From positions 22,320,001 through 22,384,000 of the forward strand of contig OZ024752.1 of assembly GCA_964016885.1 (NCBI GenBank): a stretch of DNA of 64,000 nucleotides, given 5' to 3'. Below are positions 34,709 to 57,494 of the stretch, one piece after another. The stretch is from Eledone cirrhosa. Lineage: Eukaryota. The notes beneath the pieces are model-generated. The model worked only from the letters and a program-made list of their open reading frames with translations, searched no databases and was not told where the DNA came from. How positions within the stretch are numbered: position 1 is the stretch's first letter; every line of letters starts with the position of its first letter. Made by a program: the position numbers and the translations under genes.

Positions 34709-34786
34709 ATGATTGTACTCCCCTTATTGACCATATCGTTGATGTTCATTGTGGTATCACTTTTATTCAGGTATAAACCCCTAAAG
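34709..34786 (+). CDS. OGFr-domain gene B putative first coding exon, hydrophobic signal-anchor (MIVLPLLTISLMFIVVSLLFRYKPLK)
   Basis: caaaaATG start context and consensus donor AAG|gtaagt. Phase 0 joins the acceptor at 40812. Linkage is inferred, with no transcript evidence. Confidence 0.65.
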
Positions 34787-35059
34787 GTAAGTTTTTCATT
34801 ACTTTATTTTAGATATTGGTGCACAAAGTGATCAGGATTGTTGTCTTTGTGGTTGTTTTTCAACAGGAAATTTCATTTTATATCTTGTGAGGGTGGTAGA
34901 TTGGCAGTATTGATAGAGCGTCTGACACCATCCTTCTCTTTACGTTCTGAGTTCAAATCCTACCAAGGTTAGCTTTGCCATTCGTCCTTATGGGGGTCGA
35001 TAAAATAAAGTACCAGTAACATACTGTGCCTAAATCAGAAACCATTATAACATCATATA

Positions 35060-37845
35060 AACACTGTAGCCGGAGGCATTCAGACTTGCCTGGCGTCTTT
35101 CTATCACTTTGGCGAGAGTCGTTCCACTCTCCACGTGGGGTTCTTCCAACAGTGTCTATCTTCACACGACACGTCTCCTCACGGTGCCAACAGCCAAGTG
35201 CAACTGCCCACCGCTTGGTCCCTCGTGTCGCCTCCCGTCCTCCTGCTTCTGGTCAGCCCTCCCTCAACTTCCGGTAATCCCTCTCCCATGGCAGCTCTAC
35301 ACCCCCCTCCCTCTATCTCACGGCAGCCCCACAAACACAATATTGGTAATAAATATTATTTACATACAATACCGGATTGTCAAGCATTTCCCCCAGCGCC
35401 TCCGAGCGAAACGCTGTGCTGTTGTTCATCTACAGGGCCTCGCTCCAAGAATATCTCTCAGCGTCCGCGCGATTTCCTCCGCAGTCCTTGTCTTCATTTC
35501 CCTCCATATTGCCATTTGTCCCGGCCCACAAACGACCATCAAGAGATACGTTCCTTGTCGGTAGTGTGTCACGTCCACCCCCTATCGTTTCCAGTTGTGC
35601 TCCACCGGGATGCTGCCTCTCTCGTGCACACCCGGGGAAGGGTCGATAGACTGGCATCTGTCGCAACCTCCGACCACTCTCTGGACACTCTATCTGCTAA
35701 CATCAGAGTTGATTCTTCTGGCTAGGAACAGGGTCCTATCCACTCCCATGTGGTGCATGGCATACAGTCCCCTCAATTCCGAATCAATCAGCCGACACAC
35801 TGCAGCTATCCCCCTATCTGCGTCCTCTGGCGTTTCCAGACAGGCGTTCTTCACCCTGGTTAATACGTCTGCCCTGTTTTTCTCTGAGGGTACAAAAACC
35901 ACACTCAACTCCAGGCCAAACTTGGTGGACAGCTCTCCCAGAGTTCCTGGGTGGCGCGTAATCAACATTTCTGCTGCTCCTCACATTCGTACCCTCTTCT
36001 CAGTACGAATTTCTATGGTGCACAGCCCCCATCTCAGGGCGAGATTCATTCCTATCAGCACAGCATCCAGTTCGGCCACATTGAATAGGTTGTAGTCCTT
36101 CTTCTTGAGCCAGGCTTCATCCTCGACCTCGACATCCCCTCTCCAGAGTGACCCCTAGTGCTATGCTGCTGGCATCGCACCATATCGTCCCACTCTCCGA
36201 TTTGGGGACGTACCAGCGTCCTATCACTAAGTCATCCGCCTTTACCCTCTCTATAATCTCCTACATCATGGCCACTGTCCTCTCTCCAACCCTGTCACCC
36301 CCAGCTCATCCCGTCTGCTCGTCTCTTGACATAGCTGCATGCCGTCCGGAGCTACCCTGCAATCGGATAGTGGCCCACAAATTTACCACACATTGAGAAG
36401 AGTTCCCGTCTATTCATATCGGGGCCCAGTTCCAGGACTTTGTTACTCCTCCGAAACACCAGTGTACCCACCTTATCTCTTTGCGGCTCCTCCTCCTATC
36501 ATCTCTGGCAGTTTTGCGGTCAGACCGAACCTTCCCAAGTAACCCGAGACCTCTGCTGCTGACACCACCGTCTCGTCCACCAAGATGTCGTCGATGTAGG
36601 AGTTGGTGGCCCTCTTCACCTTGTCTGCTTTTCCCAGAATGGCCTTGAGGACCGTGGCCATGATTTTTGGTGCAGAGTTCAACCCGAAGCCAAGCCTGGT
36701 CAGGCAGTATGTCTGGCCCTTATACCTGACCAGCTGATATTTCCACAGCTTCTCATCCATGTGTAACTGCAGATATGCCGACTGTAAGTGACAATCGTGG
36801 AGGCCCCCGTCATTCGTCTACACTCTTGCAAGGTTCCCCCGCAATTATCCGTAACCTCACCGCCTATGTGGCATGAAACGTGTTCGTTCAGCTCACGAAA
36901 GTCCAGCACCGGTCTAACCTTGTTCTTCGTGGGATGCACCACTGCCATCAGCGGCAACACTCCACACTTCACCTCCTCCTTCCAAGGAATCAGTATACCC
37001 TCCTGGGTATCTTTCCCTCAAACTCGCTTCTGGCATTTCCTTTCTGGGTATGCTGATAGCAGCCCACTTTATTCTTCAGCATTGGTGGATCTCCCTTTCA
37101 GTACCACTCAACTACCCACCGCTGCCCATCGAACACCGCCCTGAAATCCTTGTCCTGTATGGTGTTTTCTTCGTGGATTCTCACCGCACTCACGGCACAT
37201 GATGTCTCCTCGCTACCAAACGTCACCCTGACTTCACTCACTGTAACACCTCCTAAGCAGCCAATCGCATCCATGCCCATTACTACATCGATTCCGTCCA
37301 CCACCTGGTCAATCACGATCGCCCCGAACCTAATTTTTCTTCCCCGTACCACCACCGACACCTCCCTACCGTCGACTGCCCTTATACTGCTCATCCCGCT
37401 CCACCTTTTAACCACCTCCGTGGTCACTAATGTTGTCGTGCAACCCGTGTCCACGAGTGCTCGCAATGGCTTCCCCCTCACCAGAACTTCTACTACGGGC
37501 AGCGACTGCAAAGGTGTCTTTACTCGCTCCCAGGGGTGGCTGCCGATGCAGTAGTCCCCCTTGAACCATTTCCCTAGTCGCAGTTATTGGCGATGTGGCC
37601 TGGTCGCTCGCAGCGGTAACAGACTATGGCTGGCTTCGGCTCTCTGCAGTCCCTTGCCATGTCGGACCCTGGCACCTGAAGCACTGGCCTCTGAACGCAC
37701 GTGGACGGCTATTCACAGCGGCTGGTCTCCTTTCGTCGTACGTCAGTCGCTGCTTCCGTCGCTGCCTGGCGCTGCAACATTCCACCTTGTGTCTTGTGTT
37801 ATTAAGCACAGGGCCCCGTTGGCCAGAGGATGCCCATCTTCCTGC
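35060..37845 (-). mobile_element. Decayed Ty3/Gypsy LTR retrotransposon internal region (gag knuckle, protease, RT, RNase H, integrase)
   Basis: CFRC, ALVDTGC, VRPVLDFRELN, LGFGLNSAP, YIDD, N.AD.LTR and an integrase HH..CC region, in PR-RT-RH-IN order. Frameshifted; no LTRs seen. Confidence 0.85.
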
Positions 37846-37956
37846 CAAAAAAAATTTTACTATGCATTTTTCAAATGTTTGGGGCCCTTCAACTTAACTA
37901 GCACAGGGCCTCATTTGTCCATAATCTGGCACTGTTTATATGTAAACAATATATAT

Positions 37957-38310
37957 AATTGTTTCTACTTTTGGCACAAGGCCAGCAATTATCCCAGTGT
38001 ATTACTGGTACTTTATTTTATCGACCCCGTAAGGATGAAAGGCAAAGTTACCTTGGCGGCATTTGAACTCAGACCATAAAAGGGCATAACTCTATGCTAC
38101 AGAGCATGGCGTCCGACCCTCCACTGATACTGCCAATCCACCGATCATTATCGGTAGAGGGTCAGACAACATGCTTTGTAGCACAGAGTTACGCCCCTTT
38201 CTGATCCGAGTTCAAATCCTTTGCCTTTCATCCTTACGGGGTCGATAAAATAAAGTACCAGTAATGTACTGGGTAATTGCTGGCCTTGTGCCAAAAAGTA
38301 GAAACAATTA
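37957..38310. mobile_element. Head-to-head pair of Nin-like SINEs
   Basis: Minus copy at 37957-38142 and plus copy at 38148-38310. Confidence 0.8.
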
Positions 38311-38759
38311 TATATAATGAATAAGATTTACAAAAGAGACATGTCGATAGAGATTAATCATAGATAAAAGGTAAATTTTTACAATTACACCTGCCTCGGA
38401 GTTGAAATTTATGTTATTGTGTTTTCTGGATTTCAAAACGGCCAGATATTCGTTTTTAACTTAAGGAGGGATGGTGCCAGCACCAAACAATCTAGCCAGT
38501 TTTCACAGGACATATGTACAGCCCAGGAAATAGCAATACCAACGGCTGTAAATATTGTTTGGCTATTCTCATACATCTTTTCTTTAAATAGTTTTTCTTT
38601 TTTTTGTTGTTGTTTTTCAAATGAAAGTATGTATAGGGAGAGCTACAGATGGAGAGAATGTTTAGCTAGACGTTAGGAATGGATAAAGGAAAGAATGTCT
38701 TGCTAGATGTTGGAAATGGAAGGTGTGAAAATGTTTTGTTATCATGGAGATATGTTAAA

Positions 38760-39245
38760 TGGAGAGGGGAACTGAACTTGGTGATAGTTGCTAGTGTGAG
38801 AGATGTATGGAGGAAGTTCTGGGAACCAAGGGAGGGAATTGTTGCTGGAAGACAAATACATAGGCTGCATGTAGATGAAGTGCCATGATTTATGTGAGTG
38901 AGACATAGGTAATAAACATGGAGCAACAGAGATGGCTGGAAAGAAAAGAAATGAGAATGATACAGTGGCTGAATGGGGTTTCAGTCGGAGAGAGGGAGAC
39001 AAAGAATAAATTGCAGATGATGTTGGGAAGAGAACAAGTGATGAATGTTGTGAAGAGAAATGAAATGAGATGGTTGGGTCATGTGTTGAGGGAGGATGAA
39101 AATGACAGGGTGAGAAGGATGATGGAGGTAATAATGATGGAAAAGGAAATGAAAGCCAGGGGATCAGTTAAGGGAAATGCAGATGAAAGGAAAAAATGGG
39201 ATCCGCAAAGCTAACCCATGGTTTAGCAGGGAAAGGGACTTTAAA
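38760..39245 (+). mobile_element. Old RTE LINE 3' fragment
   Basis: LERKEMRMIQW..GVS...RWLGHVLR. Confidence 0.7.
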
Positions 39246-39339
39246 ATACTTCTTGTTGTGGGTGGACATTTTTAGGTTATCCAAGATGTACCTAATTCTT
39301 GTTTAAGAAAGGAAACTTTTGATGTATTTTTCAAACAAT

Positions 39340-39340
39340 G

Positions 39341-39411
<71 letters not shown>

Positions 39412-39532
39412 TACTACTACTACTACTACTGCCACCACGACTCCCAACTACTACTACTACTACTACTACCACCACTACTACTACTACTACTGCCACCACG
39501 ACTCCCAACTACTACTGCCACCACAACTCCCA

Positions 39533-39570
<38 letters not shown>

Positions 39571-39585
39571 TACTACTATTACTAT

Positions 39586-39625
<40 letters not shown>

Positions 39626-39641
39626 GCCACCACGACTCCCA

Positions 39642-39697
<56 letters not shown>

Positions 39698-39729
39698 TAC
39701 TACTACTACTACTGCCACCACGACTCCCA

Positions 39730-39783
<54 letters not shown>

Positions 39784-39784
39784 G

Positions 39785-39816
<32 letters not shown>

Positions 39817-39921
39817 GCCACCACAACTCCCAACTACTACCACTACTACTACTACTGCCACCACAACCCCCAACTACTACTACTACTACCACCACAACCC
39901 CCAATTACTACCACTACTACT

Positions 39922-39957
<36 letters not shown>

Positions 39958-39973
39958 GCCACCAAAACCCCCA

Positions 39974-40042
<69 letters not shown>

Positions 40043-40717
40043 GCCACCACAACTCCCAACTACTACAACTACTACTACTACTACTGCCACCACAACTCCC
40101 AACTACTACTACCACTACTACTACTACTGCCACCACAACTCCCAACTACTACTACCACTACTACTACTACTGCCACCACAACCCCCAACTACTACCACTA
40201 CTACTACTACTGCCACCACAACCCCCAACTACTACCACTACTACTACTACTGCCACCACAACCCCCAACTACTACCACTACTACTACTACTGCCACCACA
40301 ACCCCCAACTACTACCACTACTACTACTACTGCCACCACAACCCCCAACTACTACCACTACTACTACTACTGCCACCACAACCCCCAACTACTACCACTA
40401 CTACTACTACTGCCACCACAACCCCCAAATACTACCACTACTACTACTACTGCCACCACAACCCCCAACTACTACCACTACTACTACTACTGCCACCACA
40501 ACCCCCAACTACTACCACTACTACTACTACTGCCACCACAACCCCCAAATACTACCACTACTACTACTACTGCCACCACAACCCCCAACTACTACCACTA
40601 CTACTGCTGCTACTACTACATCTGCTGCTGCTGCTACTACCACTACTACTGCTGCTACTACTGCTGCTCCTACTACTGCTGCTACTGCTGCTACTACTAC
40701 TACTACCACTACTAATG

Positions 40718-40768
<51 letters not shown>
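39340..40768. repeat. (CTA)n compound microsatellite grading into a 40-bp minisatellite
   Basis: Unit acccccaactactaccactactactactactgccaccaca is regular from about 40140 to 40600. Confidence 0.95.
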
Positions 40769-40811
40769 GGTCAAGTCATAATTATGTAAATTATTTATTA
40801 CCATTACCCAG

Positions 40812-41046
40812 CCTTATATCATCCTGCCCATGGCCCCAATAGTGCAGATAACAACTGGATCTACACCTTTGCCACTTCACAATATGGTACATCGATATGG
40901 GAAGAAGTCCATGAAGAATAAAGCTATGATGATAGGGGATGTTGCACCAAGAGATGAGGCTATTTGTACACCATTTTGTCCATTTCAACAAAAGACCTAC
41001 CCAAATGTGAACTTTTACTCCAACATTCAACCATCACTTCCTAATG
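40812..41046 (+). CDS. OGFR-like: OGFr-domain gene B exon (PYIILPMAPIVQ...QKTYPNVNFYSNIQPSLPNG)
   Basis: Acceptor acccag| and donor G|gtaggt. YPNxxFYxN...PNG is homologous to exon 6440-6542. An alternative ATG lies at 40830. Confidence 0.8.
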
Positions 41047-41409
41047 GTAGGTTACCTTCATTTTAGAATTTCTATGTAATGATGACAAATACTGTGTATA
41101 CTTGCATATAAGCTGATCTGAATATAAGCCAACCCCTTATTTTATTATCTGAGAAATAGACAAAAATCCAAACCCTGTTTATAAAGTGAGGCAGGTAAAC
41201 AACACATGTTTAGATGGTGCAGTTTTGAAATTCTTATGATTGGAGAATATATTTATGAAGTTTTGATATTTTGATATTGGAAATGTTTTAAATGTTGTTT
41301 AGAGTGTGGCTTTTGTTTTATAACTCCGTTACATAATGATATTTTACCAATTTCCAACAGTTTTGAAGGCCATATTCATTCAAAATATGAAAAACAATAG
41401 GAAATATTA

Positions 41410-41830
41410 ATTTCACCTTGAAAGTGAAACCGGTGTAATATTCACCTCCAAAGTGAAACAGGTGTAATATTCCCCTCCAAAGTGAAACTGGTGTAATATT
41501 CCCCTCCAAAGTGAAACAGGTGTAATATTCCCCTCCAAAGTGAAACAGTTGTAATATTCACCTCCAAAGTGAAACTGGTGTAATATTCACCTCCAAAGTG
41601 AAACAGGCGTAATATTCACCTCCAAAGTGAAACTGGTGTAACATTCACCCCCAAAGTGAAACTGGTGTAACATTCACCCCCAAAGTGAAACTGGTGTAAT
41701 ATTCACCTCCAAAGTGAAACAGGTGTAATATTCACCTCCAAAGTGAAACTGGTGTAATATTTACCTCCAAAGTGAAACTGGTGTAACATTCACCCTCAAA
41801 GTGAAACTGGTGTAATATTCACCTCCAAAG
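41410..41830. repeat. 29-bp minisatellite, about 14 copies (tattcacctccaaagtgaaactggtgtaa)
   Basis: Direct tandem repeats. Confidence 0.95.
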
Positions 41831-42659
41831 CGCAAATATTTTAACTCTTCATTTTGAAGTTGGTAAAAATCAACAAAGTATTGACCTTACATATAAGCCA
41901 ACCCCCATTTTACCATCGATTTGTTATCACATATTTTCCAGCTTATATATGAATATATAGAGTAAATCATGTTAATTTGATATCATTTCATTCAGGAGCT
42001 GAAAGACCAAAACACTACACATCTCAAGGACAAGTCTTTCACTACATGCTTTGCACACATGAACAACACACAGCTGTAACTAACAAAGTGTCACAGTTTC
42101 TGTTCTCTGGTGGAGATCCTAAATATATAACATTGTGAAAAGTGTTTCTAAAAGACTAGGATTTGTCTTTAGAATCAGACAACACATCAACCCAATAAAT
42201 TGCTGATCCCTTGACAAGGCTCAGTTACAACCATCATTGAAATACAGTATATATATCTGAGACAGTTATGGTATGAGGTTGTATGTTTGCTGTTATGTGT
42301 GGTGAGGACAATGGCTTATATGTTACTGACTGGAGTTATAAAGGACCTAATCTGGGAAAATATCACTAAAATAGACTGTGGGAAAGTATATAAAAAAGAT
42401 ATAGGCTCTCAGCCTGTCTGAGATGGTGCCATGATAAAATGCACTCAGTGCACAATGGAGAATGAGTTATGGGAACATATGTTAGCAAGATCTGGGCTCA
42501 CAGCTCTTCTGAGAGGGTGCTATGATAAAATTCACTCCAATTAAGTACTGACTTGGTCTGTGATGACCTGTCCAATCCTTACTGTCAGGGAAAATGGCCA
42601 TTAAATGATGATAATGATATTGATGTCATTGCATGTATTATTTGTTATTTATTTTAAAG

Positions 42660-42738
42660 GTGATTATATAGAAGAAATTTTGAAAAATTGGGCAAATAAT
42701 TTCAAAAAACTTCAACAACATAATGGATATATCCAATG
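42660..42738 (+). CDS. OGFR-like: OGFr-domain gene B exon (DYIEEILKNWANNFKKLQQHNGYIQW)
   Basis: Acceptor tttaaag| and donor TG|gtgagt; YIQW motif; 79 nt. Confidence 0.9.
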
Positions 42739-42879
42739 GTGAGTGACTGATTAAATTTTGGACAATTATTTTATTTTATAGCATAAGAATGTTAATTAAA
42801 TATACTGGGTCGGTCTTTCTAAACCTGCAAAACTAGGCTTTTTTTAGAGGCGGCCTCTACTTGTCTTGTCATAGCTACA

Positions 42880-44228
42880 TCACTGGATTGTGATAGTTTT
42901 CATCTTCACCCTACAGACCCACACTCCCCCCCGGGCTAAACTCCTCACCCCTATTCCTTCAGCCTTCGGCCGCCCTGTTCTCCCCCCCCCCCACATATCC
43001 CCCACTAACACCACTAACACACTCCTCCTTTTCACCGCCCACCCCACAACTAACAATACTAACACCCCCACCCCACCCCCGACCACCCTCCCCCAACTAA
43101 CAATACTAACATCCTTTTTCTCCCCCCTCCCCCTATCACGCACACACACACCAGTACACTACACCCTCTCTACTGTCCCCCACACCTTTCTCTCTCTCTC
43201 CCCGCTCCACCCACACCCCTTCACACACACACACACACATTCCACTAACACCTCTACTAATACACCCCCCCTCCCCACTCCACCTTTCACACCTACCCAT
43301 CCTCTCCTCTGTCCACCGCACCTCCGCACACACTGACACACCGACTTTCTCCACCTGCCATTCTCCCCTACAGCTGCTATGCCCTGACCCCCTGACCACC
43401 TCTCCGCACACACAGACACACAACCCTCCTCCTGCCTTGACCCTCTGACCACTTCCTGTTGCGCGCGCCCCCACATCTCGCCTCTTCCGACCAACCCAAC
43501 CACGGATTACACACATTGGACATCGCTCCCACGAATCAACTCCATCACTAGGAAAATATCCGGCAACCCACCACACCCTCTACGGAACTACCTTAGGAAC
43601 TTACCCACGGACATAGACTAAAAAAAAAATGTTTTCCCATACGCCACCTACATCCACAATTCATATAAACACCACACACACGTGCGTACCCCCACATATT
43701 TACACACTCAGTCTCCGGAATCCTCTCTCCCCCTCCCCCCACCCTCTGACCCCTCCCCATCCACACACGAACACACACACCGACCTACACCCCACCCCAC
43801 ACACCTTTTCCTGAACATGGAACCCCGTTCTTCCCCCAACCCTCACATTCACATACACACACACACGTACACCTACACACACACACCACCTTCAGCCCTC
43901 CCCTCTCGGACACCCCGCCTCTCTCTCCCCACTCCACCCGCCACCACCCCTACACGCCCCACACCCTTCCACCACTTGTTTATCTTCATGTTTATTTTTA
44001 TTATGTTTTTCTATTTATTTTCATTTGTACCCCATCCACCGTTTCCTCGCACCCCATTTTTTCTAAATGTCTCTCTCCTACTCACCCTTGGAACTCTCTT
44101 CCCACACACTTTTCGCCTGAAGAAGGGCTTATGCCCGAAACGTCGTTCCCCCCGACCCCACCCTCAAGAGCGTGAAACTAATAAACCTTTGTTCATACTG
44201 CCTCTCTGTTTTGTTCTCGTTCCATTTT

Positions 44229-44232
<4 letters not shown>
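42880..44232 (+). mobile_element. C-rich Penelope-like remnant ending in a hammerhead motif (44117-44145)
   Basis: CTGAAGA-a-gggc(ttat)gccc-GAAACGTC followed by AATAAA and (TA)n. The same motif occurs in 51115-51600. Confidence 0.5.
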
Positions 44233-44269
<37 letters not shown>

Positions 44270-44319
44270 TGCAAGCAGGGAAGAGCGGACGTAAAATGAT
44301 GATGATATATATATATATA

Positions 44320-45682
44320 TACTAGGATCGGAATTAAGAGTATTCCGCAGTTCACAGTAATAATAACAATATTAGCTCAAAGAAGAATAGAGAATTTTCT
44401 TCTGAGCTCAGATACAAATATATTACACAAAGAGAAGTGTGTTACACAGTGAGATGTGTGTAAAGAATTATTACAAGTGATTTTTACCGTTACTGTCTAG
44501 AAAACAATATCTACAGGTTTAGCAATTAAATAGAAAAAAACCTAAGTCAGAATCCAATCTCTGAAGTAGAGTTTTAAATTACTAACCTTATAACTATAAG
44601 TTTGCTGATACGAATTAAGTTCGTTTCGCCACAGAAATGTGCAGTTTAACAGCCACTGGTTCATCAGTCAGCAAATGTGGATTCTGTTTACTACACATCT
44701 AACCTCATGGATAGAGAGAAAGCTAATATACACGCTGCCCAGGGTAGGGCGAAATCACGTGTTATTTGCATCAAATAACGGCTCTCATAGATTGGAGAAA
44801 ATGCTAGAGAGAGCAACCATTCGAATTTATTAGCTCAACAATTTGGAGCTCGTTAAGTATACTAGGATCGGAATTAAGAGTATTCCGCAGTTCACAGTAA
44901 TAATAATAATATTAGCTCAAAGAAGAATACAGAATTTTCTTCTGAGCTCAGATACAAATATATTACACAAAGTGAGAGCCGTTATTTGATGCAAATAACA
45001 CGTGATTTCGCCCTACCCTGGGCAGCGTGTATATTAGCTTTCTCTCTATCCATGAGGTTCGATGTGTAGTAAACAGAATCCACATTTGCTGACTGATGAA
45101 CCTGTGGCTGTTAAACTGCACATTTCTGTTGGGAAATGAACTTGATTTGTATCAGCAAACTTATAGTTATCATTTCATTTTTTTCATTTTACGTCTGCTT
45201 TTTCCCTGCTTACAAGGGTGGGACGGGAACTGATTCTGGCTTGATTTCTACAGCTGGATGCCCTTCCTAACACCAACCTCATTTACAGTGAGTGCTGGGT
45301 GCTTTTTTGTCGTGGCACCTCCACGACCACTTTGCAGTGGAATGATATGGACCCCAGTCCCTATCATCTCATTTCTACAGCTGAGTAAACTGGAGCAATG
45401 TGAAATAAAGTGTCTTGCTCAAGGAAACAACACATCACCCGGTCTGAGAATTGAACTCACAACCTTTCGATTGCAAGGCCAATGCTCTAACTACTAAGCC
45501 ATGTGCCTTATAAGGTTGGTAATTTAAAACTACTTCAGAGCTTGGATTCTGACTTAGATTTTTTTCTATTTAATTGCTAAACCTGTAGATATTGTTTTCT
45601 ATACAGTAACGGTAACAATCACTTGTAATAATTCTTTACACTCATCTCACTGTGTAACACACTTCTCTTTGTGTAATATATT

Positions 45683-45686
<4 letters not shown>
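44320..45686. mobile_element. Penelope-like pLTR tandem and inverted array with a CORE-like SINE inserted (45168-45508, minus)
   Basis: Direct repeat 44320-44431/44860-44971. 44973-45686 is an inverted copy of about 44414-44787. Flanked by (TA)n. Confidence 0.75.
44602..44674 (-). ncRNA. Type I hammerhead ribozyme (inverted copy at 45086-45158, plus strand)
   Basis: ttgctga-CTGATGA-...-GAAACgaa(cttaa)ttcGTA-tcagcaa: 7-bp stem I and 5-bp stem III. Confidence 0.75.
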
Positions 45687-45715
<29 letters not shown>

Positions 45716-46279: not shown

Positions 46280-48493
46280 GGCTTATATATATAGTAATGG
46301 CATTCAATCAGAACAATAACAACAATACTAACAATGCTAGCAATAAATTATTTGAAATAATCACAACATCAATCTAAGTAAGACATAGAGTATACTCATG
46401 ACTTTAGCATATAAAACAAGCTGATATGAGGCAGATGTATGACATTGACATGTAAAAGCTGTTGTGGGGTGTATTATATAGTGTAGAGATAGGCCGGGGC
46501 TTTAAACAATCTACCATTTCCTTTACCGTAGGTCTGCTGACCGTAAGAATTATTTATTATCTGACAGATAAAATATTTAGCATTGTAGTGAGGATAGTAA
46601 TTTTTGTGGTGTGAAGTGGATTCAATATTTATGTGGTCTATATTAGATGAAGGGATTGTTAGTTTCAATCATGGGGTTGTTTAGCTTTCACATCATCAAT
46701 AACATACAAGTATAAGATAACATTAACAGAGTAGCAATATAATAGGTAAGTTAATACAGAGGTTAAGGAGGCAATATCCAAACCCATGCAAGCGTGGAAG
46801 ATGGACGTTAAACGATGATGAGAGAGAGAGAAAGCATGCTGACTACAATTATAACAACAGGAGGAAGGTGATGTTTTTCTGTGGTAGTATTCTGAAAATG
46901 TACTTGGATTTAGGTTAATAGTGTGGGTATGATATTTTGAATGCTAAGTTATGTTGGTTCGATTCACGGAGGCTTAAATCTTGTGAATTTAGTGGCTATC
47001 CTGTGTATGCAGAAAATTTATCTTTCTATCTTGTTGTTGAGTAGCCTTTTTTCATTCCTAAGGATATACAGTAATTCAAGATCACAGAGCCTACAGTAGG
47101 ACATACCGGTACTGTAAGCCCTTGCGGCCGACAAGTTCGACCAGTTGATATTGTAGTTGGTGTTATTGTCCTTAAGTTCCCAGATTTTTTTTGGCGAGGG
47201 TTGTAGAACCCATAAGTGCATGGTTCTACATCGAGTGTCTGTGCACATACCATCTTTTTTTAAAAGTACCCGCGGTGGATCCAATGTAATGCCAAGTGGA
47301 GTTGCCCGAGTTGACCGTACACATGTACACTAGGCTCGAATCAAGGCATCTATTCGCCAATGGGCACCTATCCGGTAGGTGACAGTTGCATTTTGAGGTG
47401 TTATTCCGTGCAGCTTCCACACTGCTGTTTTGTACACTGCTATAAGTGGGTTGTGATTCATGCCCGTTGAGGTTTTGCTGCTGCGTGCTTGTATGCGGTT
47501 GTGATACTGTGATGTGTTTATGTTTATAATTTGGTGCTATGTTGCGCATAGGTGGGGGTGGATTCCCTAGAGGTATTTCTGTGGTTGATCTTGCGTATGT
47601 GTGATTCTATATTTGCAGCCGTAGAGTATGAGAGTTTTATAGTTTTTCTATTGAGTATTTTATGATATCTGTGAAGTGTTTATCTATTAGTTTAAAGAAC
47701 GTAGAAGGCAGTCTAGTTTTTACAGAGGAGTTGAAGATTGGATTGAACCACAGGTATTTTCTTTCTCTGATTCTTCTATTGTTTCCAGGGTTTACATTAT
47801 TGGTGTTTGGACCACTTACTCTAGGTGCTATGTGCCTAACTCTATGTCTAGTCCTGTTACCTCTATTTTTGTGTGAGCGGTTGGTGTCATTGTTAGTAGG
47901 TTTGTTTAAGTTGTCTTTATTTGTTATAAACTGCAGCTTTTCTTTATGTCCGGCCCTATGTAATGCGGCGTTATAATAGTTAGCATATTCATTAAAAATT
48001 TCTAGGTTTGAGGATAAGCGTTATATTCTAAGGGATATACTACGTGCTATGGATCTGATTATGGATCTGGGGTGGTTTGAGTTATAACTAATGTAAGCCA
48101 GCTTGTCATTATTTTTGTGGAAGGGTTCTATTAATCCCGTATTTAGATTTAGACTCACATCTAGAAAGTTTACCTTTTTATGGTTCAGTTCGTAGGTGAT
48201 ACTTAGGCCTAGTTTTTTTAAGAATGTTCTAATGTTTTTTCTTAATCTTTCCATGCTCTGGTTGTTTAAGTTCCTAGCTATAAGGAGCGTGTCATCTCTA
48301 TAAATCCCTCCTTGGAGGTTACTGAATTCTTTATGTAGGCTGTGTGCTATAAATAGCCCCACGACGTCAGTGATTTGCGCAGAGTCATTTGATCCCATTG
48401 TGATATCGAAGCTTTTTATTCTATCTTTTCATACCCAGTAGCTATTTTCAAATTTTATGATAGTCCTTCTAGCCGCTATTATTATATCAATTT

Positions 48494-48707
48494 TAACATG
48501 TTGAACCCACATTGCAAATAAAGGGTGGTGGATTGGCAGTATCGGTAGAGGGTCGGACGCCATGCTTTCCAGCATAGTTACGTCCCTTTACGATCTGAGT
48601 TCAAATCCCGCCGAGGTTGACTTTGCCTTTCATCCTTACGGGGTCGATAAAATAAAGTACCAGTAATGCACTGAGTAATTGCTGGCCTTGTGCCTAAAGT
48701 AGAAACA
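48494..48707 (+). mobile_element. Nin-like SINE inserted in Penelope RT
   Basis: TSD attattatatcaattt at 48478-48493 and 48708-48723. Confidence 0.85.
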
Positions 48708-50434
48708 ATTATTATATCAATTTCCTCAGGGGTAAGATCGGAGTTATTTTGGGCAAATTTTGGATGCAGAGTAATCGTTTATATCAAATTGTATGAAGTT
48801 GCATGTCTCTCTATTTCTTATTTTATTGAACCATTCTATTACCTCGTTAGTGTTACCCCATAAATTGATTTCTAGTTTTCCCTTTATTTGTGCAATTACC
48901 CTATCTAGCATGTTCTTGCTAATTTTACCTATATCTGACTTAGAATGGCATATTAATCTCATAGTAGGGTTTGTTTCAAAATGATTTTTGTGATCCTTCA
49001 GGTTAAATGTGGGGTTGCATGGGGTTAGAGGCTCGGTCCTATCGGGTATTCCGAGTTTATTTACTATCCTAAGGCCCTCCACGTTAATGCTGGTGAGCGT
49101 GGATTCATTTGTTTTTTTGTATTTTTTGTGTAGTTCACGCTGAATAAAATTATTGTATGTGTTAAGGTCCATAGAATATACGTTTGATGTTTTGTCTGCC
49201 TTTACTATGATACCGTTGGTGTCTTTTAGTTATTTTAGTAGTGTGTTGATGTCATTTGGTAACTTGTTGTGGTGTGTTCTTTTTTTGAATTTAGTTCCAC
49301 TTATCATATTCATAAGGTCCAGCTCGAAGGCATCGAGTGTGGGGTTGTTTGGAGGGTTTTAGCAGGATTTGAATCCGTAATTCTCCTTAGAAAATTCTCT
49401 TGCGTTAATAGCTGGTCCTTTGTCGAAGTGGTAAGCCTTCCATCGGACCCTACGGATGAAATCATTAGTCCGTTGTATCATGCCTAGTGTATAGTCCTTA
49501 TTTGTAGCCATAGGTATGTTTTTCAGTGACATTCCTATACGGTGCTTTTCCATGTTGTTGCCGTGCGTTAATGGTGTTGCTCAACCAGGTGGGAGCTATG
49601 TATACGGGGTAACAGATTATTATTATAGGTAGTCCACTTAGATGTAGTACAGTTAGGGTACTCCGAGTAGTGGATGATATCAACGCTTGGCTAAGTTTGA
49701 CTCAACAAGGCGTTTCCATAGTGATGCTGCGAGTACGCAGTAATTTCAATGTTGTTAACACTTGGAGTAATGATAAATCAAGAAAGAAGTGTGACATGGT
49801 TTGCTATACAATAAGGGCTTTATTCACATTGCTGACAATTGTTTCTCTGAACTGGTAGGTCTAGAGATCGCTACCCGCCTGTTTTCGCGTCATTCGATCA
49901 CCAATACATAGTTGTAACCAGTCAATTCATCAGAGCTATCGAGAATGAAGGGAATACACAGGCATGGCTTCTATATATAGTAATGGCATTCAATCCTCAC
50001 TACAATGATAAATATTTTATCTGTCAGATAATAAATAATTCTTACGGTCACCAGACCTACGGTAAAGGAAATGGTAGATTGTTTAAAGCCCCGGCCTATC
50101 TCTACACTATATAATACACCCCACGACAGCTTTTACTCTATGTCTTACTTAGATTGATGCTGTAATTATTTCAAATAATTTATTGCTAGCATTGTTAATA
50201 TTGTTGTTAATGTTCTGATTGAATGCCATTACTATATATAGAAGCCATGCCTGTGTATTCCCTTCATTCTCGCTAGCTCTGATGAATTGACTGGTTACAA
50301 CTATGTATTGGTGATCGAATGACGCAGAAACAGGCGGGTAGCGATCTCTAGACCTACCAGTTCAGAGAAACAATTGTCAGCAATGTGATTAAAAACCTTT
50401 TTTGTATAGCAAACCGTGTCACTCTACTTTCTTG

Positions 50435-50480
<46 letters not shown>

Positions 50481-50637
50481 TCATTTTATTTAAGCTGAAT
50501 TTCACTTTGATGACCTTGTGACAAACAAGCAAAACTCCAGAGTAACAAGACTCATTATTTAGCCATAATAAAATGAATATAAAAACTACTTCAGTAATTG
50601 AGTATGCCTTTCTCTGTTGTCTACCATATACGGGTAT

Positions 50638-50669
<32 letters not shown>

Positions 50670-51114
50670 CAACGCTTACATGAACCTACATACATATATA
50701 TATATATATATGTGGACCTCCCAAAATTCGTTGGATTTTCTAATTAGATTTTCACCCCCAAACAAAATACACCACCCCGTCCCACTACCCCCACCCCATC
50801 CACACCACCCCTTTCTCTGTAAAGTTATGTTGGTACCACAACATCTAGTCCTAAATAAATGAGGTTGTGTAGGTGTCACGACAAAAAACACAGTCCACGC
50901 TGTAATGTAGCCGTGTAGGTAACACAGTAAAAACCTCTCAGTCCACACTGTAAACGTGGTTGGTGTTAGGAAGGGCATCCAGCCGTAGAAAACCTGCCAG
51001 ACAGTCCTATTCGAGCGAGACAACCAATCTTGCCTCAAGTGGGACAATTCCCGTCTAAACCCATACTAGCGTGGAAGATGGACGGTAAACGATGATGATG
51101 ATGATGATGATATT

Positions 51115-51600
51115 TATAAGTTAAAACAAAAAACAAAAACAATAACAAAGTGTGCAGTACAAAGTGTTAGTATTAGGTTCACGCTTGAGAGTGGGGGGTG
51201 GGGGGTCGTTTCAGGCATAAGCCCTTCATCAGGAGAAAGGTGGGAAGGGAAAGCGTTCCGAGGGTGTGAGGAGGAGTGGTGGAAAGACATTAAAAAGGGT
51301 AGTACAGGGGGAGAGAGAGACGGTGCTGGGTACAGTATGAGTGAGGGTAATATACTGGTGTGTGTGTCTGTGGTGGGATGTCGAATATGGGTGTGTGTGC
51401 GGGGGTAATCTCTACGGATGAAAGGGCTCACCAGAGACAGGGCCTGAGTCTTGAAGTCAGAATCTCGGCTGCAGAGGCAGCGTATCTGGAGGAGTAGGGA
51501 GTGGAGTGTTTGGTGTGTGTAGGAGGTCAAGTTGAGGTAGGAGTGGAGTTGGTGGGTTTGAGTAAGGTGGAGGTGATGAGGGAGTCGATGGCGACGGATA
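51115..51600 (-). mobile_element. Penelope-like fragment (RT thumb remnant plus hammerhead motif)
   Basis: SLLLQIRCLCSRDSDF...FIRRDYP, followed by CTGATGAagggcttatgcctGAAAC. Confidence 0.65.
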
Positions 51601-51622
51601 TATATATATATATGTATATATA

Positions 51623-54234
51623 TCATCATCATCATCATCACCGTTTTACGTCCGTTCTTCCACGCTAGCATGGGTTAGACGGGTTGTCCTGTTGTGGGCA
51701 GTGTCTGGTCGGCTGACCATGCCTTGTTCATACAGGAACTGATTTGGCTTGATTTTTACAGCTGGATGCCCTTCCTAACACCAACCTCATTTACAGTGAG
51801 TGCTGGGTGCTTTTTCGTTGTGCCTACATGTCCACTTTACAGTGTGGGCTGGGTGCTTTTTTGCCGTGGCACCTCCACGACCACCTTGCAGTGGTGGGTG
51901 TGGGGGCATATTGTCTATATGCTTCAGCTTGTACCCATGGGAGGTCGGGTACTCTGTATTACTGCGTGACGCCAGAGGTCACGGTCGTGAGTCATCGCCT
52001 TTGAGAGGTGTAATTGGGTAAGGTCAGCTTTTATCACCTCATCCCAGGTCATCTTGGGTCTCCTCACTCCGCAGTTTCCATCGACTTCTAGTGCTCTGCA
52101 CCTTTTTATGCAGCTGTCATCCTTCATACGCATCACATGTCCATACCAACGCAACCGCCTCTCCTGCACACACATTTGATTCCTCTTATGCTCAGTCTCT
52201 CTCTCAATTCATTTATGCTTTGTCGTTCGCGTATATTACTATTACACATCCATCGGAGCATGCAGGCTTCGTTTCTCTCTAATCTACGTAAGTCCTCCAC
52301 CTTCAGCGCCCAGGTCTCACTACCATGCAACATCGCTGTTCGGATACACGCATCATACAGTCTGCCTTTCATTTTGAGGGAGAAGCCTTTTGCAGCTAGC
52401 AGTGGTAGTAATTCCCTAAACTTCTTCTATCCCGTTCTTACCCTAGTTATTGTACTTTCTGAACACCCACCTCCGCTGCTAATTCGGTTGCCTAGGTAGC
52501 AGAAGCTGTCTACTGTTTCTACAGAGCCCTCCCAGAGATTGGTGGTACTTGTTTCCTGTGGCTGTTTGCTGCTTGCTGTCCCAGCACAGCTGCTGCATGT
52601 GAAGCCTACATTCTTAATTAAGCTTCCTGAGATCCCGCTACATCTCTTGTGTACCCATTGTTTGCATTTGGGGCAGAGAATGGAGTTCCTACCTACACCT
52701 TTCCTACATACTGAGCAAGGCCATTTCCCTGAGGGGATCTGGGTTCTGTTTTCTCGTCTACTTACAAGGACCTTAGTCTTTGTCATGTTGACTTTGAGAC
52801 CCTTTCTTTCTAGTCTCTGCTTCCAAGTTTGGAATTTCTTCTCTAGTTCTACCATAGATTCAGCTATAAGTGCGAGGTCATCAGCATACAGGAGTTCCCA
52901 TGGGCATCCGGTCTTAAACTCCTCCGTTATTGCCTGCAGGACTATGATCAACAGGAGGGGGCTAAGAACAGAGCCCTGGTGGACCCCAACATGTACGCTA
53001 AATTCCTCGCTATACTCATTGCTAATCCTAACTTTGCTGACTGCTCCCCTATACATGGTTGTACCGCTTTCACAAGCCATTCATCTACTCCTAGTTTTCT
53101 AAGAGCCCACCAGATGACAGCACGTGGAACTCTGTCAAAGGCTTTCTCAAGATCGACAAATGCCAGGTAGAGTGGCTTACTTTTAGCTAGGTACTTTTCC
53201 TGTAACTGCCTCACAAGGAAGAGGGCATCAGTGGTGCCTCTTCCTGGTACAAACCCAAATTGCATCTCGTCTAGTTTCACCCGGTCCCTAATCAACTGTG
53301 CTATAACTCTTTCTGTTACTTTCATGACCTGGTCCATCAGCTTTATACCTCTATAGTTTCCTCTATCTAGTGCATCACCTTTACCTTTGTAGCAGTTGAC
53401 AATGATGCTACTGCACCAATCTTTTGGTATGACACCTTCTAGTATTACCTGGTTAACAATACGTGTGGTTATAGTGTGACCTACAGACCCAGATGCCTTC
53501 AGCATCTCGGCAGCTATACCTGATGGACCGGTTGCCTTCCCCATCTTCATATCTTTGATTGCCTTACTTACTATGCTGCCCCCTCTATAGGGTCTACTTG
53601 GGGTAGGGTCTCTTCTTCCCATGCATTCTCCTCATTTAGTAATCTATCATAATGACTCTTCCATGCATCTTTCTTCTCAGCACTTGTGAGGGCAAGCTCA
53701 CCTTTATCATTCCGGATACACTTCTCTCCAATGACATCACAATTCTCTCTGACACACTGCCTCGCAATCTTGAACACCTCCTGTTTCTGGTCCTCATGTT
53801 GCAAAACATGCTTGAATTTTCTATCCTCTGCTTCCCTCCTAGCTAAGTATACTTGTCGCCTAGCTTCCCTCTTGGTCTCTATGTAATGTACCCTGCTCAC
53901 CCCGTTCTTCCATTCTTTCCATGCCTGTCTCTTGGCCTTAACTACCTCATCTACCTTATTGTTCCACCACCAAGTCACTCTCCTCCTGCTTGTGGTCTTA
54001 CTCCAGCCACAGACCTCATCCGTCGCCTCTAGTAAGTTATTTTTTAGGAACTCCCAGTTATCTTCTACATTGAATGTCTGTATCTGTTCTTCTTTACTGT
54101 CGTAGGCATTGAGTAAAATATCTTTAAATCTGTTACTGGCTGAGGGGTCTTTCAGCTTCCAGATCTTTCTTCTCCAGGTTGGCCTCTGTTTCCAGGTTCG
54201 TCTAGTTCTGACTGTGAGGTCGCTGACAACTAAG
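51623..54234 (-). mobile_element. RTE LINE, 5'-truncated and frameshifted
   Basis: TWWWN, NYRGIKL, QFGF, DLEKAFD, LLYADD, PHD finger, RRLRWYGHV and a (CAT)n tail. Confidence 0.93.
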
Positions 54235-54250
54235 CTATATATATATATAT

Positions 54251-54382
54251 ATAGGAAAAAGTATGATCCCGACAGCAGAGCTCAAGCCGTTTCGACGGTT
54301 ATTTCTGGACTGAGGTATTTCAGTCCAGAAATAGCCGTTGAAACGGCTTGAGCTCTGCCGTCGGGGTCATACTTTTTCCTAT
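54251..54382. repeat. Near-perfect hairpin with arms of about 62 bp
   Basis: ataggaaaaagtatga...ctggactga / tcagtccag...tcatactttttcctat. It contains a GAAACggc..gccGTC hammerhead half. Confidence 0.85.
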
Positions 54383-54752
54383 TTCCCTCTCTACTACCCT
54401 AAGTATTGGGTACTTTGGTGCATTATGGTCCATCTGGTTCCTTACCACAATTCCTTTGTTATATAAATTTATATATATATGTATATATATATATATAAAT
54501 TTGAGCAACTTCCACAATGTGTGTGTGTATTTGTGTGAATGTATGTCTGTGAGTGTGTATTTTTGTAAGTGTGTCTGTGTTTGCATGTTTATATTTGTAT
54601 ACTCATATATATAAATGTATGCATATGCACATATACACATATGCGTCAGCATGTTGAAAAATTTCTAGTATATATATAATAGCACAGTGGACCAGGTTTT
54701 AGTGTAGGGATGGTATGTTTTGTCTCGTGTTAATTTTTGTTTTTTATTTCAG

Positions 54753-54822
54753 GTTATTTCCAATCCCGAGAATCAGCAAAACTAACAGATATGCTCAACC
54801 AATAACAGAAGAAGAGAGAGAT
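54753..54822 (+). CDS. OGFR-like: OGFr-domain gene B exon (LFPIPRISKTNRYAQPITEEERD)
   Basis: Long pyrimidine tract and tttcag|; donor GAT|gtgaga; LFP..N..A.P.T..E motif. Confidence 0.9.
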
Positions 54823-55187
54823 GTGAGAGTTGTCACCATTATATATTTACACAACATTCTGTGGTTGTTTTTATTGGTTTCAGTTATTGGACAATAGCCA
54901 TGATGATATATCACATTCAACAGATTTATTTAGTTAGTCATATCAACCCCAGTAGTTATTTAACCAATCTCTTTTTGTCAGACTGTTATGTTATAGGCTA
55001 TAAGAAAACAAGCACACACATACACATTGTGCTTGTTTGCTTACGTCAGCAAACAGAAGTTTGATGAGCTTTTCATTCCAGAGTCGGGCCTGATCAATAG
55101 AGATGGAACCTTGAGCTGATCAGTCGTGAAACGTGTGTCACACCTGAATAAACTTAATGAAAATTTGACATCTCATCCACACTTATT

Positions 55188-55565
55188 AGTATCGGGAGAT
55201 GGTCGGACGCCATGCTTTGCAACATAGAGTTACACCCCTTTACGGTCTGAGTTCAACTCCCGTCGAGGTTAACTTTGCCTTTCATCCTTTCGGGGTCGAT
55301 AAAATAAAGTACCAGTAATGCACTGGGATAATTGCTGGCCTTGTGCCAAAAGAAGAAACAATTATTATTATTACTGGTGGATTGGCAGTATTGGTAGAGG
55401 GTCAGACGCCATGCTTTGCAGCATAGAGTTACAGGCCTTTATGGACTGAGTTCAACTCCCATCGAGGTTAACTTTGCCTTTCATCATTAAGGGGTCGATA
55501 AAATAAAGTACCAGTAATGCACTGGGATTATTGCTGACCTTGTGCCAAAAGTAGAAACAATTATT
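55188..55565 (+). mobile_element. Two tandem Nin-like SINEs
   Basis: Same family sequence as 20556-20746. Confidence 0.85.
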
Positions 55566-55690
55566 ACTATTACACTCTGCTTAGTACAGCCCCAAAATAC
55601 ATTCTGGAGACTACACAGCGAGTCCTCATTTTGGTGAACCAACAGTAACTTGGTGTTACAATCCCTAAACTATATATATATATATATATA

Positions 55691-55985
55691 TATTCATTAG
55701 TTAAGCAAAACAAGACCACAAATTTCACAACATTATTAAAAGATTGTCAACATATTTTAGTTTGATGTAAGGAATGTAGAGAATAATAATAATATTAATA
55801 TGGAGTAGCGAAACAATTGTAAACGGACATTATTGTAAACAATTGTAAACAATTGTAAACAATTATTATTAATATTATTATTATTATTCTCTACATTCCT
55901 TACATCAAACTAAAATATGTTGACAATCTTTTAATAATGTCTTCCTTGTGAAATTTCTGGTCTTGTTTTGCTTAACTAATGAATA
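55691..55985. repeat. Inverted repeat with arms of about 110 bp
   Basis: tattcattagttaagcaaaacaagacc... versus ...ggtcttgttttgcttaactaatgaata, next to (TA)n. Confidence 0.8.
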
Positions 55986-56150
55986 TTTCCAGCTCTGTGC
56001 GCCTAACTTCTGCATGAACCCAGCCACCTAGCTGCTTTCTACTGCATATTGCACATTGAGCACATGCCTTTATGCTTTGGCTTCTAACTAATTCACCAAT
56101 CTCTCCTCTCCTATCTCCATCTCTCTCTTTAAGATTGGTTACTCTTGAAC

Positions 56151-56193
<43 letters not shown>

Positions 56194-56565
56194 ATATCAT
56201 GATCATGATCTTAATCATGTACCTTGGTCAATTTGGCGAAATCATGAGAGATTCCTTCTTTGGAATGGTTTCTATAGCTGGATACTCTTCCTGATATCAA
56301 CTACTTTACAGAGTGTACTGGGTGTATTTTATCATGGCTCCAGTAAGAGGTAGATAACTGATTATAAAACAACTAAATATTCCACCCCACATTCACCTTT
56401 TTTTAGTTCATTCAAGTTACTATAGCACACACATACACACACTCACACATATAATGCACACAAACACATACACAACACAAACACACACACACATACACAC
56501 AATACATTTGTCCTGAACCTTTATAGTTTAAAGTTTACACTGTAAATTTTGTTCACCTATTTCAG

Positions 56566-56708
56566 ATCTTTCGCAGCCAGCCTATTCTCAGAAGTAGAGT
56601 TCTGCAGTCTTTTAAAATAATGCTGAGATTCTTTGGTATACAAATGACTGATCCATACCAGTTTGGACATTATCCTAACTACCGTGAAAGATTTGATTAC
56701 CTCCAAAA
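56566..56708 (+). CDS. OGFR-like: OGFr-domain gene B exon (IFRSQPILRSRVLQSFKIMLRFFGIQMTDPYQFGHYPNYRERFDYLQ)
   Basis: Acceptor tttcag| and donor AA|gtattt; MLxFFG and NYxERF motifs; 143 nt. Confidence 0.9.
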
Positions 56709-57217
56709 GTATTTAGCAAAGTTTTATTCACTTCAGTAATAGCAACTTTCCATTAGTCCTCAGTCTTCCGTAATCACATTCTTACCAATCCGGCCTATTC
56801 TATGAAATAAAACCATCCATTTTAAAGGTTTCTAATTTAAATTAAAATCTTCCAACATAATTTTATATAAGAGTCTTACACATTACTATATTAGTGCTTT
56901 TTATTGTGACACCAAAACAACCAACTAACAGGTTAGACTGGATAGTTTTCCTTCGTGTTACCAGCATGACCACCTTACAGGGTGGACCAGGTGCTTTTTG
57001 TCATGTCACCAACTAGCTGTTAAATCATTACCCAAAAAGGACCTGCAAGGCTAACTTCTGCTTTAGCAGAGAAAATGCCAATAAAACGTCTGTTGCGTTA
57101 TTGCATCATTAATTTTACCAAAGGTGTTCTTCCCTCTGTTCCTCATTTGCTATAAAATATATATGATAGTGCCTTACTAGTGTACCAAATTTCACTATGT
57201 AACTTCTTTTATTTCAG

Positions 57218-57428
57218 ACATCCAAACAACTACAAACGAATCACAAGAATGATAGAATCTCTCAGATATTTGGACTTCAAACCACATATACTATATTTCA
57301 TCAGATTTCTTGCATATATGGTCAGATATGATTTGCTACCAATGGCTGAGGAATCAATAAACAAGTACTGGATTCCTCAACTATGTAAACATGAACAATA
57401 TCAATTGCAACAATTACTTGACTTTTAA
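57218..57428 (+). CDS. OGFR-like: OGFr-domain gene B terminal exon (HPNNYKRITRMIESLRYLDF...YWIPQLCKHEQYQLQQLLDF*)
   Basis: Acceptor tttcag|; NxxRITR motif; TAA stop. Total CDS is 816 nt, 271 aa. Confidence 0.9.
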
Positions 57429-57494
57429 AGAAAACAAAACAAAATGAACAACAATTATTAAACCCATCATTCCTTAATTTCTGCTGTCAATGTG

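What the first reader, a model, noticed from the sequence alone, without database searches (positions are those of the whole stretch)
34709..57428. Hidden OGFr-domain paralogue with an N-terminal membrane anchor
Seen: six exons with valid splice sites join in frame to 271 aa. The protein starts MIVLPLLTISLMFIVVSLLF-RYKPLK-PYIILPMAP, about 20 hydrophobic residues followed by basic and Pro-rich segments. Knowledge: vertebrate OGFR and OGFRL1 have no transmembrane helix, and this hydrophobic-basic-Pro pattern resembles P450-type reverse signal-anchors. Inference: this is a lineage-specific, membrane-tethered or secreted OGFr-domain protein. I know of no description of such an architecture.
Basis: partly seen in the sequence, partly recalled or inferred. 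Interest (0 to 1): 0.8.

Follow-up and report, generated by a model that had tools for sequence, protein, structure and literature searches.

The report
Membrane-anchored, likely dead OGFr paralogue
This octopod gene encodes an "opioid growth factor receptor"-type domain behind a predicted membrane anchor, has lost the three charged residues that nearly all relatives keep, and sits next to an intact, also anchored sister gene, so it is likely an inactive partner of a probably enzymatic domain whose chemistry is still unknown.

Summary
Observation confirmed: six GT-AG exons give an open 271-aa OGFr_N-domain protein. Its Octopus sinensis and O. bimaculoides orthologues in NCBI start with the same hydrophobic-then-basic segment. 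The anchor is not special to this gene. The upstream tandem paralogue (1147 aa, 926-aa repeat tether), other Octopus paralogues and a cuttlefish homologue have it too. Charge pattern points to an uncleaved anchor with the domain in the cytosol, not secretion. Membrane tethering recurs in the family: 37 of 200 homologues start Met-Gly, and human OGFRL1 is reported myristoylated. New point: this gene and its orthologues replace Glu, His and His, kept in 205, 192 and 202 of 210 other domains, by Gln, Asn/Ser and Asn, while the neighbour keeps them. That is a pseudoenzyme pattern. Viral OGFr genes lie near NAD/ADP-ribose genes (7 of 36 loci versus 0 of 31 unmatched controls), but 80 bacterial loci showed no such link. 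Earlier scan notes proposed the ADP-ribose link on microbial DNA; none covered this locus. No RNA run was available. No paper describing the anchor or the residue loss was found. Verdict: new variant of a known family.

The parts
34709..34786 (+). Gene B exon 1: start codon, about 20 hydrophobic residues, basic tail; predicted type III signal-anchor
   Evidence: orthologues; helix 2-22 in the model of the orthologue
40812..41046 (+). Gene B exon 2: short conserved Pro-rich start, poorly conserved disordered linker, start of the OGFr_N domain
   Evidence: pLDDT below 50 for orthologue residues 26-68
42660..42738 (+). Gene B exon 3 (79 nt): carries Q123 (42713-42715) and N126 (42722-42724) in place of the family's Glu and His
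54753..54822 (+). Gene B exon 4 (70 nt)
56566..56708 (+). Gene B exon 5 (143 nt); scores 30.2 bits on PF04664 alone (cut-off 22)
57218..57428 (+). Gene B exon 6 with stop: N205 (57225-57227) replaces the family's second His; both arginines kept; ATTAAA at 57457
1..111 (+). Gene A (tandem paralogue): end of a 2778-nt exon encoding a 926-aa acidic, His-rich 10-residue repeat; it starts 2.67 kb before the window, and the candidate anchor exon lies at G000:C12:22273676-22273750
6440..6542 (+). Gene A exon 3, start of the OGFr_N domain
8275..8353 (+). Gene A exon 4 (79 nt), intact Glu and His, GC donor
16965..17031 (+). Gene A exon 5 (67 nt)
19358..19500 (+). Gene A exon 6 (143 nt)
28308..28506 (+). 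Gene A last exon with stop, intact second His

Best explanation
Gene B is a six-exon tandem duplicate of the octopod OGFr-domain gene whose product is predicted to hang from a membrane by an uncleaved N-terminal anchor with the domain in the cytosol, and it is likely a catalytically dead copy because it has replaced three near-invariant polar residues. Shown: the gene model, the conserved hydrophobic first exon, the three substitutions (Glu to Gln, His to Asn/Ser, His to Asn) in all three B-type sequences, and the intact residues in neighbour gene A. Inferred (about 0.85): N-out/C-cytosol topology, ER-inserted, equivalent to the myristoyl anchor of OGFRL1. Inferred (about 0.7): the OGFr domain is an enzyme and these three residues are catalytic, so B keeps the fold and the two arginines but does not turn over substrate. 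Inferred (about 0.4): the substrate is an ADP-ribose-type nucleotide or conjugate. B would then bind or shield that substrate close to the membrane, or tune gene A's product, which would reach much further on its 926-residue tether.
For: Gene model and orthologues. Domain 122 of 183 residues identical to each Octopus orthologue while the linker is unalignable, i.e. the domain is under constraint. Hydrophobic core starts at residue 2 with net +3 in the next 15 residues; no N-glycosylation sequon in B or its orthologues; the Sepia homologue has an acidic N-side (-4) with a sequon before the helix and lysines after it. Glu in 205, His in 192, His in 202 of 210 non-B domains. Of 30 columns at least 90% conserved, B changes 4 (these three and Ile to Met); gene A and its relatives change none. 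8 of 11 proteins with tandem OGFr domains have one domain degenerate at one or both His sites beside an intact one. A and B share intron positions and phases and their first exons are alike in DNA (score 92, maximum 84 in 1993 random windows). 37 of 200 homologues start Met-Gly against 6% Gly background. NAD/ADP-ribose families within about 3 kb of viral OGFr genes in 7 of 36 loci, including a NADAR-OGFr fusion, versus 0 of 31 control loci, Fisher p 0.01-0.018. O. vulgaris lacks opioid precursors (PMC12919962, passages).
Against: No enzyme activity of any OGFr domain was found in print, so 'catalytic' rests on conservation alone. I could not inspect the models' coordinates, so clustering of the three residues in one pocket is untested. 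The viral control is not matched for genome size (OGFr loci are mostly on large contigs; 6.4 kb versus 5 kb windows), two of the 7 loci are related, and only 217 of 327 and 145 of 220 ORFs were scanned. The best 80 of 591 bacterial loci, mostly Acidobacteriota, showed no conserved neighbour and no NAD/ADP-ribose enzyme among the ORFs scanned. Topology comes from hand heuristics, not SignalP or DeepTMHMM. Exon 1 identity to the orthologues is only 6 of 21 and 7 of 23. In one tree B did not group with A (85/72 with a long-branch protist row); in another the cephalopod-type rows formed one side of a branch at only SH-aLRT 86.
Confidence: 0.55

Rival explanations
1. B is anchored as described but is still an enzyme with changed chemistry or substrate, the new Gln/Asn/Asn and nearby Lys/Arg residues forming a different active site.
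For: The substitutions are fixed across three octopod species, with further fixed changes to basic residues near them; the B stem branch is long (1.2-1.3 changes per column) and then slow.
Against: All three losses are the isosteric, charge-removing kind; the same His sites decay to many different residues in second domains of tandem proteins and in paralogue C, which fits relaxed catalysis better than one new chemistry.
Confidence: 0.2
2. The N-terminal segment is a cleaved signal peptide or type II anchor and the domain is secreted or lumenal, as reported for the nematode protein MiISE6.
For: A 20-residue hydrophobic stretch at the very N-terminus also fits a signal peptide; MiISE6 has a tested signal peptide before a short OGFr_N match (PMC5876317, passages).
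Against: No basic n-region, basic residues after the helix, no small-residue cleavage-type site in the two orthologues, no sequons; many family members start Met-Gly, which implies the cytosolic face (PMC12955691).
Confidence: 0.1
3. It is a membrane receptor for an enkephalin-like growth peptide, as described for mammalian OGFr.
For: Domain homology to OGFr; OGFr is reported at the outer nuclear envelope (PMC2253554, passages).
Against: Opioid precursors are missing from the O. vulgaris transcriptome (PMC12919962); the domain occurs in bacteria and viruses; no OGFr_III repeat in the orthologues.
Confidence: 0.05
4. In this species the hydrophobic exon is not used and translation starts at the ATG at 40830, giving a soluble protein.
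For: That ATG is in frame in a good context; an anchor-less isoform is modelled for O. sinensis paralogue C (P0204); no RNA for this species.
Against: 5 of 5 NCBI isoforms of the B orthologues carry the anchor; residues upstream of 40830 in exon 2 are conserved; the exon is homologous to gene A's first exon.
Confidence: 0.06

Closest known systems
Octopus 'opioid growth factor receptor-like protein 1' models XP_036359308.1 (O. sinensis) and XP_014770405.1 (O. bimaculoides)
   Same: Orthologues: same anchor, same length, 67% identical domain, same three substitutions.
   Different: Automatic annotations only; no description of the anchor or of the residue loss was found.
Vertebrate OGFRL1 (PF04664)
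   Same: Same domain; also membrane-tethered at the N-terminus (myristoylated, PMC12955691); molecular function described as poorly understood (PMC11062026, passages).
   Different: Lipid anchor rather than a transmembrane helix; fish and frog members keep Glu/His/His.
Mammalian OGFr (OGFR)
   Same: Same N-terminal conserved domain; reported at the outer nuclear envelope (PMC2253554).
   Different: 677 aa with 20-aa repeats and a bipartite NLS, said to bind Met-enkephalin; B has no such repeats and has a hydrophobic anchor.
MiISE6 of Meloidogyne incognita (PMC5876317)
   Same: Hydrophobic N-terminus in front of an OGFr_N match.
   Different: Cleaved, tested signal peptide, only a 28-residue domain match, secreted and nuclear-targeted.
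Type III (reverse) signal-anchor proteins such as microsomal cytochromes P450 (recalled)
   Same: Hydrophobic helix at the extreme N-terminus, basic residues, then prolines, then a globular domain.
   Different: Unrelated domain; a long disordered linker follows.
Rv1873 (PDB 2JEK)
   Same: Appears for both models at Z 6.5, 118-125 of 140 residues aligned, rmsd about 4.
   Different: Tied with many unrelated helical proteins; function unknown; relationship not shown.

Membership tests
OGFr_N domain family (PF04664) | Score above the Pfam cut-off | tested here: met
   Orthologues 131-133 bits, exon 5 alone 30.2 bits, cut-off 22
OGFr_N domain family (PF04664) | Conserved structural core | tested here: met
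   26 of 30 highly conserved columns kept; domain pLDDT mostly above 90
Canonical OGFr domain | Near-invariant Glu, His, His | tested here: not met
   Q123, N126, N205 in B; met by gene A
Mammalian OGFR | OGFr_III repeats | tested here: not met
   No PF04680 match in the orthologues at E up to 1
Mammalian OGFR | Met-enkephalin binding and nuclear import | not testable with these tools
   Needs binding and localisation assays
OGFRL1 | N-terminal Gly for myristoylation | tested here: not met
   Residue 2 is Ile
Type III signal-anchor protein | About 20 hydrophobic residues at the N-terminus, basic residues on the C-side, no cleavage site | tested here: met
   KD 2.76, C-side +3, no sequon; heuristics only
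Type III signal-anchor protein | Membrane insertion with cytosolic C-terminus | not testable with these tools
   No topology predictor or experiment available
Pseudoenzyme | Loss of conserved polar residues with the fold kept and an intact paralogue present | tested here: met
Pseudoenzyme | Parent domain shown to be an enzyme using those residues | not testable with these tools
   No activity found in the paper searches
ADP-ribose-processing domains (NADAR, macro, ARH) | Shared fold or sequence | tested here: inconclusive
   No clear structural match of any kind; only a gene-context link
Rv1873-like | Shared fold | tested here: inconclusive
   Z 6.5, tied with unrelated helical chains; no Pfam cross-hit

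The most novel reading that the evidence does not exclude
The 'opioid growth factor receptor' domain is an unrecognised ADP-ribose-processing enzyme with a Glu/His/His active site that works at the cytosolic face of membranes. Octopods then carry a natural active/dead pair: an intact enzyme on a 926-residue tether and a short-tethered triple knock-out that binds substrate or regulates it. The pair would point to the catalytic residues of a domain whose loss in human OGFRL1 is linked to recessive cherubism.
Probability: 0.3. Interest if true: 0.8.

Novelty: new variant of a known kind. Interest (0 to 1): 0.5.

Why it matters
The biochemical function of the OGFr domain is open although humans have two such genes and OGFRL1 loss is linked to cherubism (PMC11062026). 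This locus gives two handles. The anchor, replaced by a myristoyl group elsewhere, says the domain is repeatedly held at the cytosolic face of membranes. The intact/degenerate pair names three residues to mutate and supplies a natural negative control or substrate trap. The anchor alone is a modest, cephalopod-wide variation already present in public gene models.

Tried and rejected
RNA support: no RNA holder listed; the three runs laid were unnamed contig sets of one sample covering introns, with no splice joint shown. Homologue search with exon 2 alone: nothing at E<=0.001. PDB by sequence: only a spurious PsaD match for the single protein, nothing for the profile. Fold searches: no match at E<=0.001 in Foldseek and no Z>=8 in VIA-align. 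PHROGs: no family for the orthologues, and only unknown-function families for 2 of 30 viral neighbours. ESM Atlas: OGFr clusters only; nothing usable once PF04664 was skipped. Bacterial gene neighbourhoods: no conserved partner in 80 loci; REase-ARP next to OGFr in 2. A first viral control with a YopX gene returned the same loci and was dropped. More full paralogues in this genome: searches with PF04664, exon 2, exon 6, an abalone OGFR, paralogue C and gene A's last exon found only A and B exons, plus one weak E 2.1 row on C1 not followed (lower bounds). The 23-aa cassette of the O. bimaculoides isoform was not found in intron 1. PMC9503650 on viral NAD/ADPr systems has no mention of OGFr. Homology of A's repeat exon to the O. 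sinensis XP_029636202 linker is weak (28%, E 0.024).
Full report
Observation. The window lies on contig C12 of a 3.0-Gb genome; the closest proteins are from Octopus, at 67% domain identity, so the animal is an octopod. The six exons named in 'parts' have canonical splice sites and join to 271 aa. The first exon encodes about 20 hydrophobic residues and a basic tail (KD 2.76). It is the only such exon on the + strand of 264 kb under strict donor rules. Under relaxed rules 4 of 464 candidates pass, all in this gene cluster, and 3 of 466 pass on the other strand. No RNA run was listed for this DNA, so the junction is supported by orthologues: all 5 isoforms of O. sinensis XP_036359307-9 and O. 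bimaculoides XP_014770404-5 start with a hydrophobic segment and two lysines, and one has a 23-aa insert at the exact junction.

Surroundings. A second OGFr-domain gene (A) lies upstream on the same strand with the same intron phases. Its model has a candidate hydrophobic first exon 46 kb before the window, a 2778-nt exon of 30-nt repeats (926 aa, net charge -93, 107 His) and five domain exons; it gives 1147 aa without a stop. The first exons of A and B are alike in DNA (score 92; 0 of 1993 random windows reach it), so the anchor predates the duplication. Downstream lie two copies of an A-type anchor exon and two of the repeat exon, with no domain exon in the next 260 kb. Own-genome searches found no further domain copies (lower bounds).

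Spread of the anchor. Of 200 OGFr-domain proteins, 14 have a 19-residue window with KD>=1.8. Seven are cephalopod or group with them: B and its two orthologues, O. vulgaris CAI9722424, O. bimaculoides XP_014770397 (a further paralogue, C), Sepia pharaonis CAE1264559 and an unnamed Logan protein. The others are a kinetoplastid protein, three unnamed proteins, one weak snail case and two C-terminal cases. Octopus has at least four paralogues, with neighbouring accession numbers that suggest a tandem cluster. The 12 cephalopod-type rows form one side of a branch at SH-aLRT 86 in a quick tree of 35 rows; in a 63-row tree B sat apart from A on a long branch. 37 of 200 homologues begin Met-Gly, and human OGFRL1 is listed among myristoylated proteins (PMC12955691, passage). 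Membrane tethering is therefore a family habit, met here by a helix.

Topology. No predictor was on hand. The core starts at residue 2, the next 15 residues carry +3, the orthologues have no small-residue cleavage-type site, and B has no sequon. The Sepia protein has an acidic, sequon-bearing segment before the helix and lysines after it. This fits N-out/C-cytosol. AlphaFold of the O. bimaculoides orthologue gives a helix at 2-22, disorder at 26-68 and a confident helical domain; the A-type O. vulgaris protein folds alike.

Residue loss. Among 210 non-B domains, Glu75, His78 and His156 (O. vulgaris CAI9722424 numbering) occur in 205, 192 and 202. B has Q123, N126 and N205; its orthologues have Gln, Ser/Asn and Asn. 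Of 30 columns conserved at 90% or more, B changes these three and one Ile; A-type proteins change none. Paralogue C changes six, and 8 of 11 proteins with tandem domains pair an intact domain with one degenerate at the His sites. The B domain is still constrained (122 of 183 identical to each orthologue). This is the pattern of a pseudoenzyme, provided the parent is an enzyme, which is inference.

What the domain does. No solved structure matches clearly; Rv1873 (2JEK) appears at Z 6.5 for both models among tied helical chains. A Marseillevirus OGFr protein matches at E 3.8e-6. Earlier scan notes suggested an ADP-ribose link, which I tested. From 53 viral loci I kept 36 non-duplicate ones and scanned 217 of 327 ORFs, leaving out stand-alone OGFr ORFs and most short ones. 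Seven loci carry NADAR (one fused to OGFr), NUDIX, SIR2, PARP (two related loci) or ART-PolyVal; RNA ligase or RtcB genes occur in three more. In 31 of 46 random viral loci (145 of 220 ORFs, near-duplicates dropped) there were none; p 0.01-0.018. The control is not size-matched. The best 80 of 591 bacterial loci showed no such link. The ADP-ribose reading is thus a lead at about 0.4. An enkephalin-receptor role is unlikely: O. vulgaris lacks opioid precursors (PMC12919962, passages).

Literature. Ten searches found no description of an anchored or degenerate cephalopod OGFr protein and no enzyme activity for the domain; the library lacks most subscription papers. Passages read: PMC12919962, PMC5876317 (MiISE6, signal peptide plus short OGFr_N match), bioRxiv 2021.11.23.469661 (OGFr inside amphibian retroviral Pol), PMC12955691, PMC11062026, PMC2253554, bioRxiv 2024.10.31.621237 (an ogfr gene up under heat and CO2 in bobtail squid). 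PMC9503650 was searched with no hit. PMC12730205 (OGFR and PARP-inhibitor sensitivity) was seen as a listing only. The P450 comparison is recalled.

Verdict. Real gene, real anchor, shared across the cephalopod paralogues; a new variant of a known domain family. The most useful feature is the intact/degenerate anchored pair. Interest 0.5; 0.8 if the domain proves to be an ADP-ribose-processing enzyme with these residues.

Noticed in passing
window 1-111 and L002:7334-10000; L006:3676-3750: Gene A has a 926-aa acidic, His-rich 10-residue repeat (about 87 copies of a 30-nt unit in the part scanned) between its predicted anchor and an intact OGFr domain; no Pfam match.
   Followed up: partly
L008 (G000:C12:22387100 and 22389800); G000:C12:22417246 and 22422838: Partial third paralogue: two near-identical A-type anchor exons 2.7 kb apart and two copies of the repeat exon, with no OGFr domain exon in the next 260 kb. 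Either relics or a short anchor-plus-repeat protein.
   Followed up: partly
L021 (about G000:C12:22478400-22481200, minus strand): Inverted, fragmented copy of gene B exon 4 and flanking intron, 93-98% identical.
   Followed up: partly
window 8353/8354: Gene A uses a GC donor where gene B has GT.
   Followed up: no
window 1327-4179 (+): LINE-type element with endonuclease, reverse transcriptase and a PHD finger match inside gene A intron 2; many relatives nearby.
   Followed up: partly
window 61992-63998 (-) and 37101-37583 (-): LTR-retrotransposon pol (RNase H, integrase) after gene B, and an aspartyl protease fragment in gene B intron 1.
   Followed up: partly
window 47229-49580 (-): Broken retroelement-like frames in gene B intron 3, Penelope-like by recall; no Pfam match for the three pieces tried.
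   Followed up: partly
window 39332-40777: About 1.4 kb trinucleotide microsatellite ending some 35 bases before the exon 2 acceptor.
   Followed up: no
L111:2344-3474; L116, L133; L156:3001-4659: Viral fusions of the OGFr domain: with NADAR, with UBA domains in long proteins, and with a ubiquitin C-terminal hydrolase.
   Followed up: no
P0068, P0063 and six unnamed proteins: Clam, poison-frog and unnamed proteins carry tandem OGFr domains, one intact and one degenerate.
   Followed up: partly
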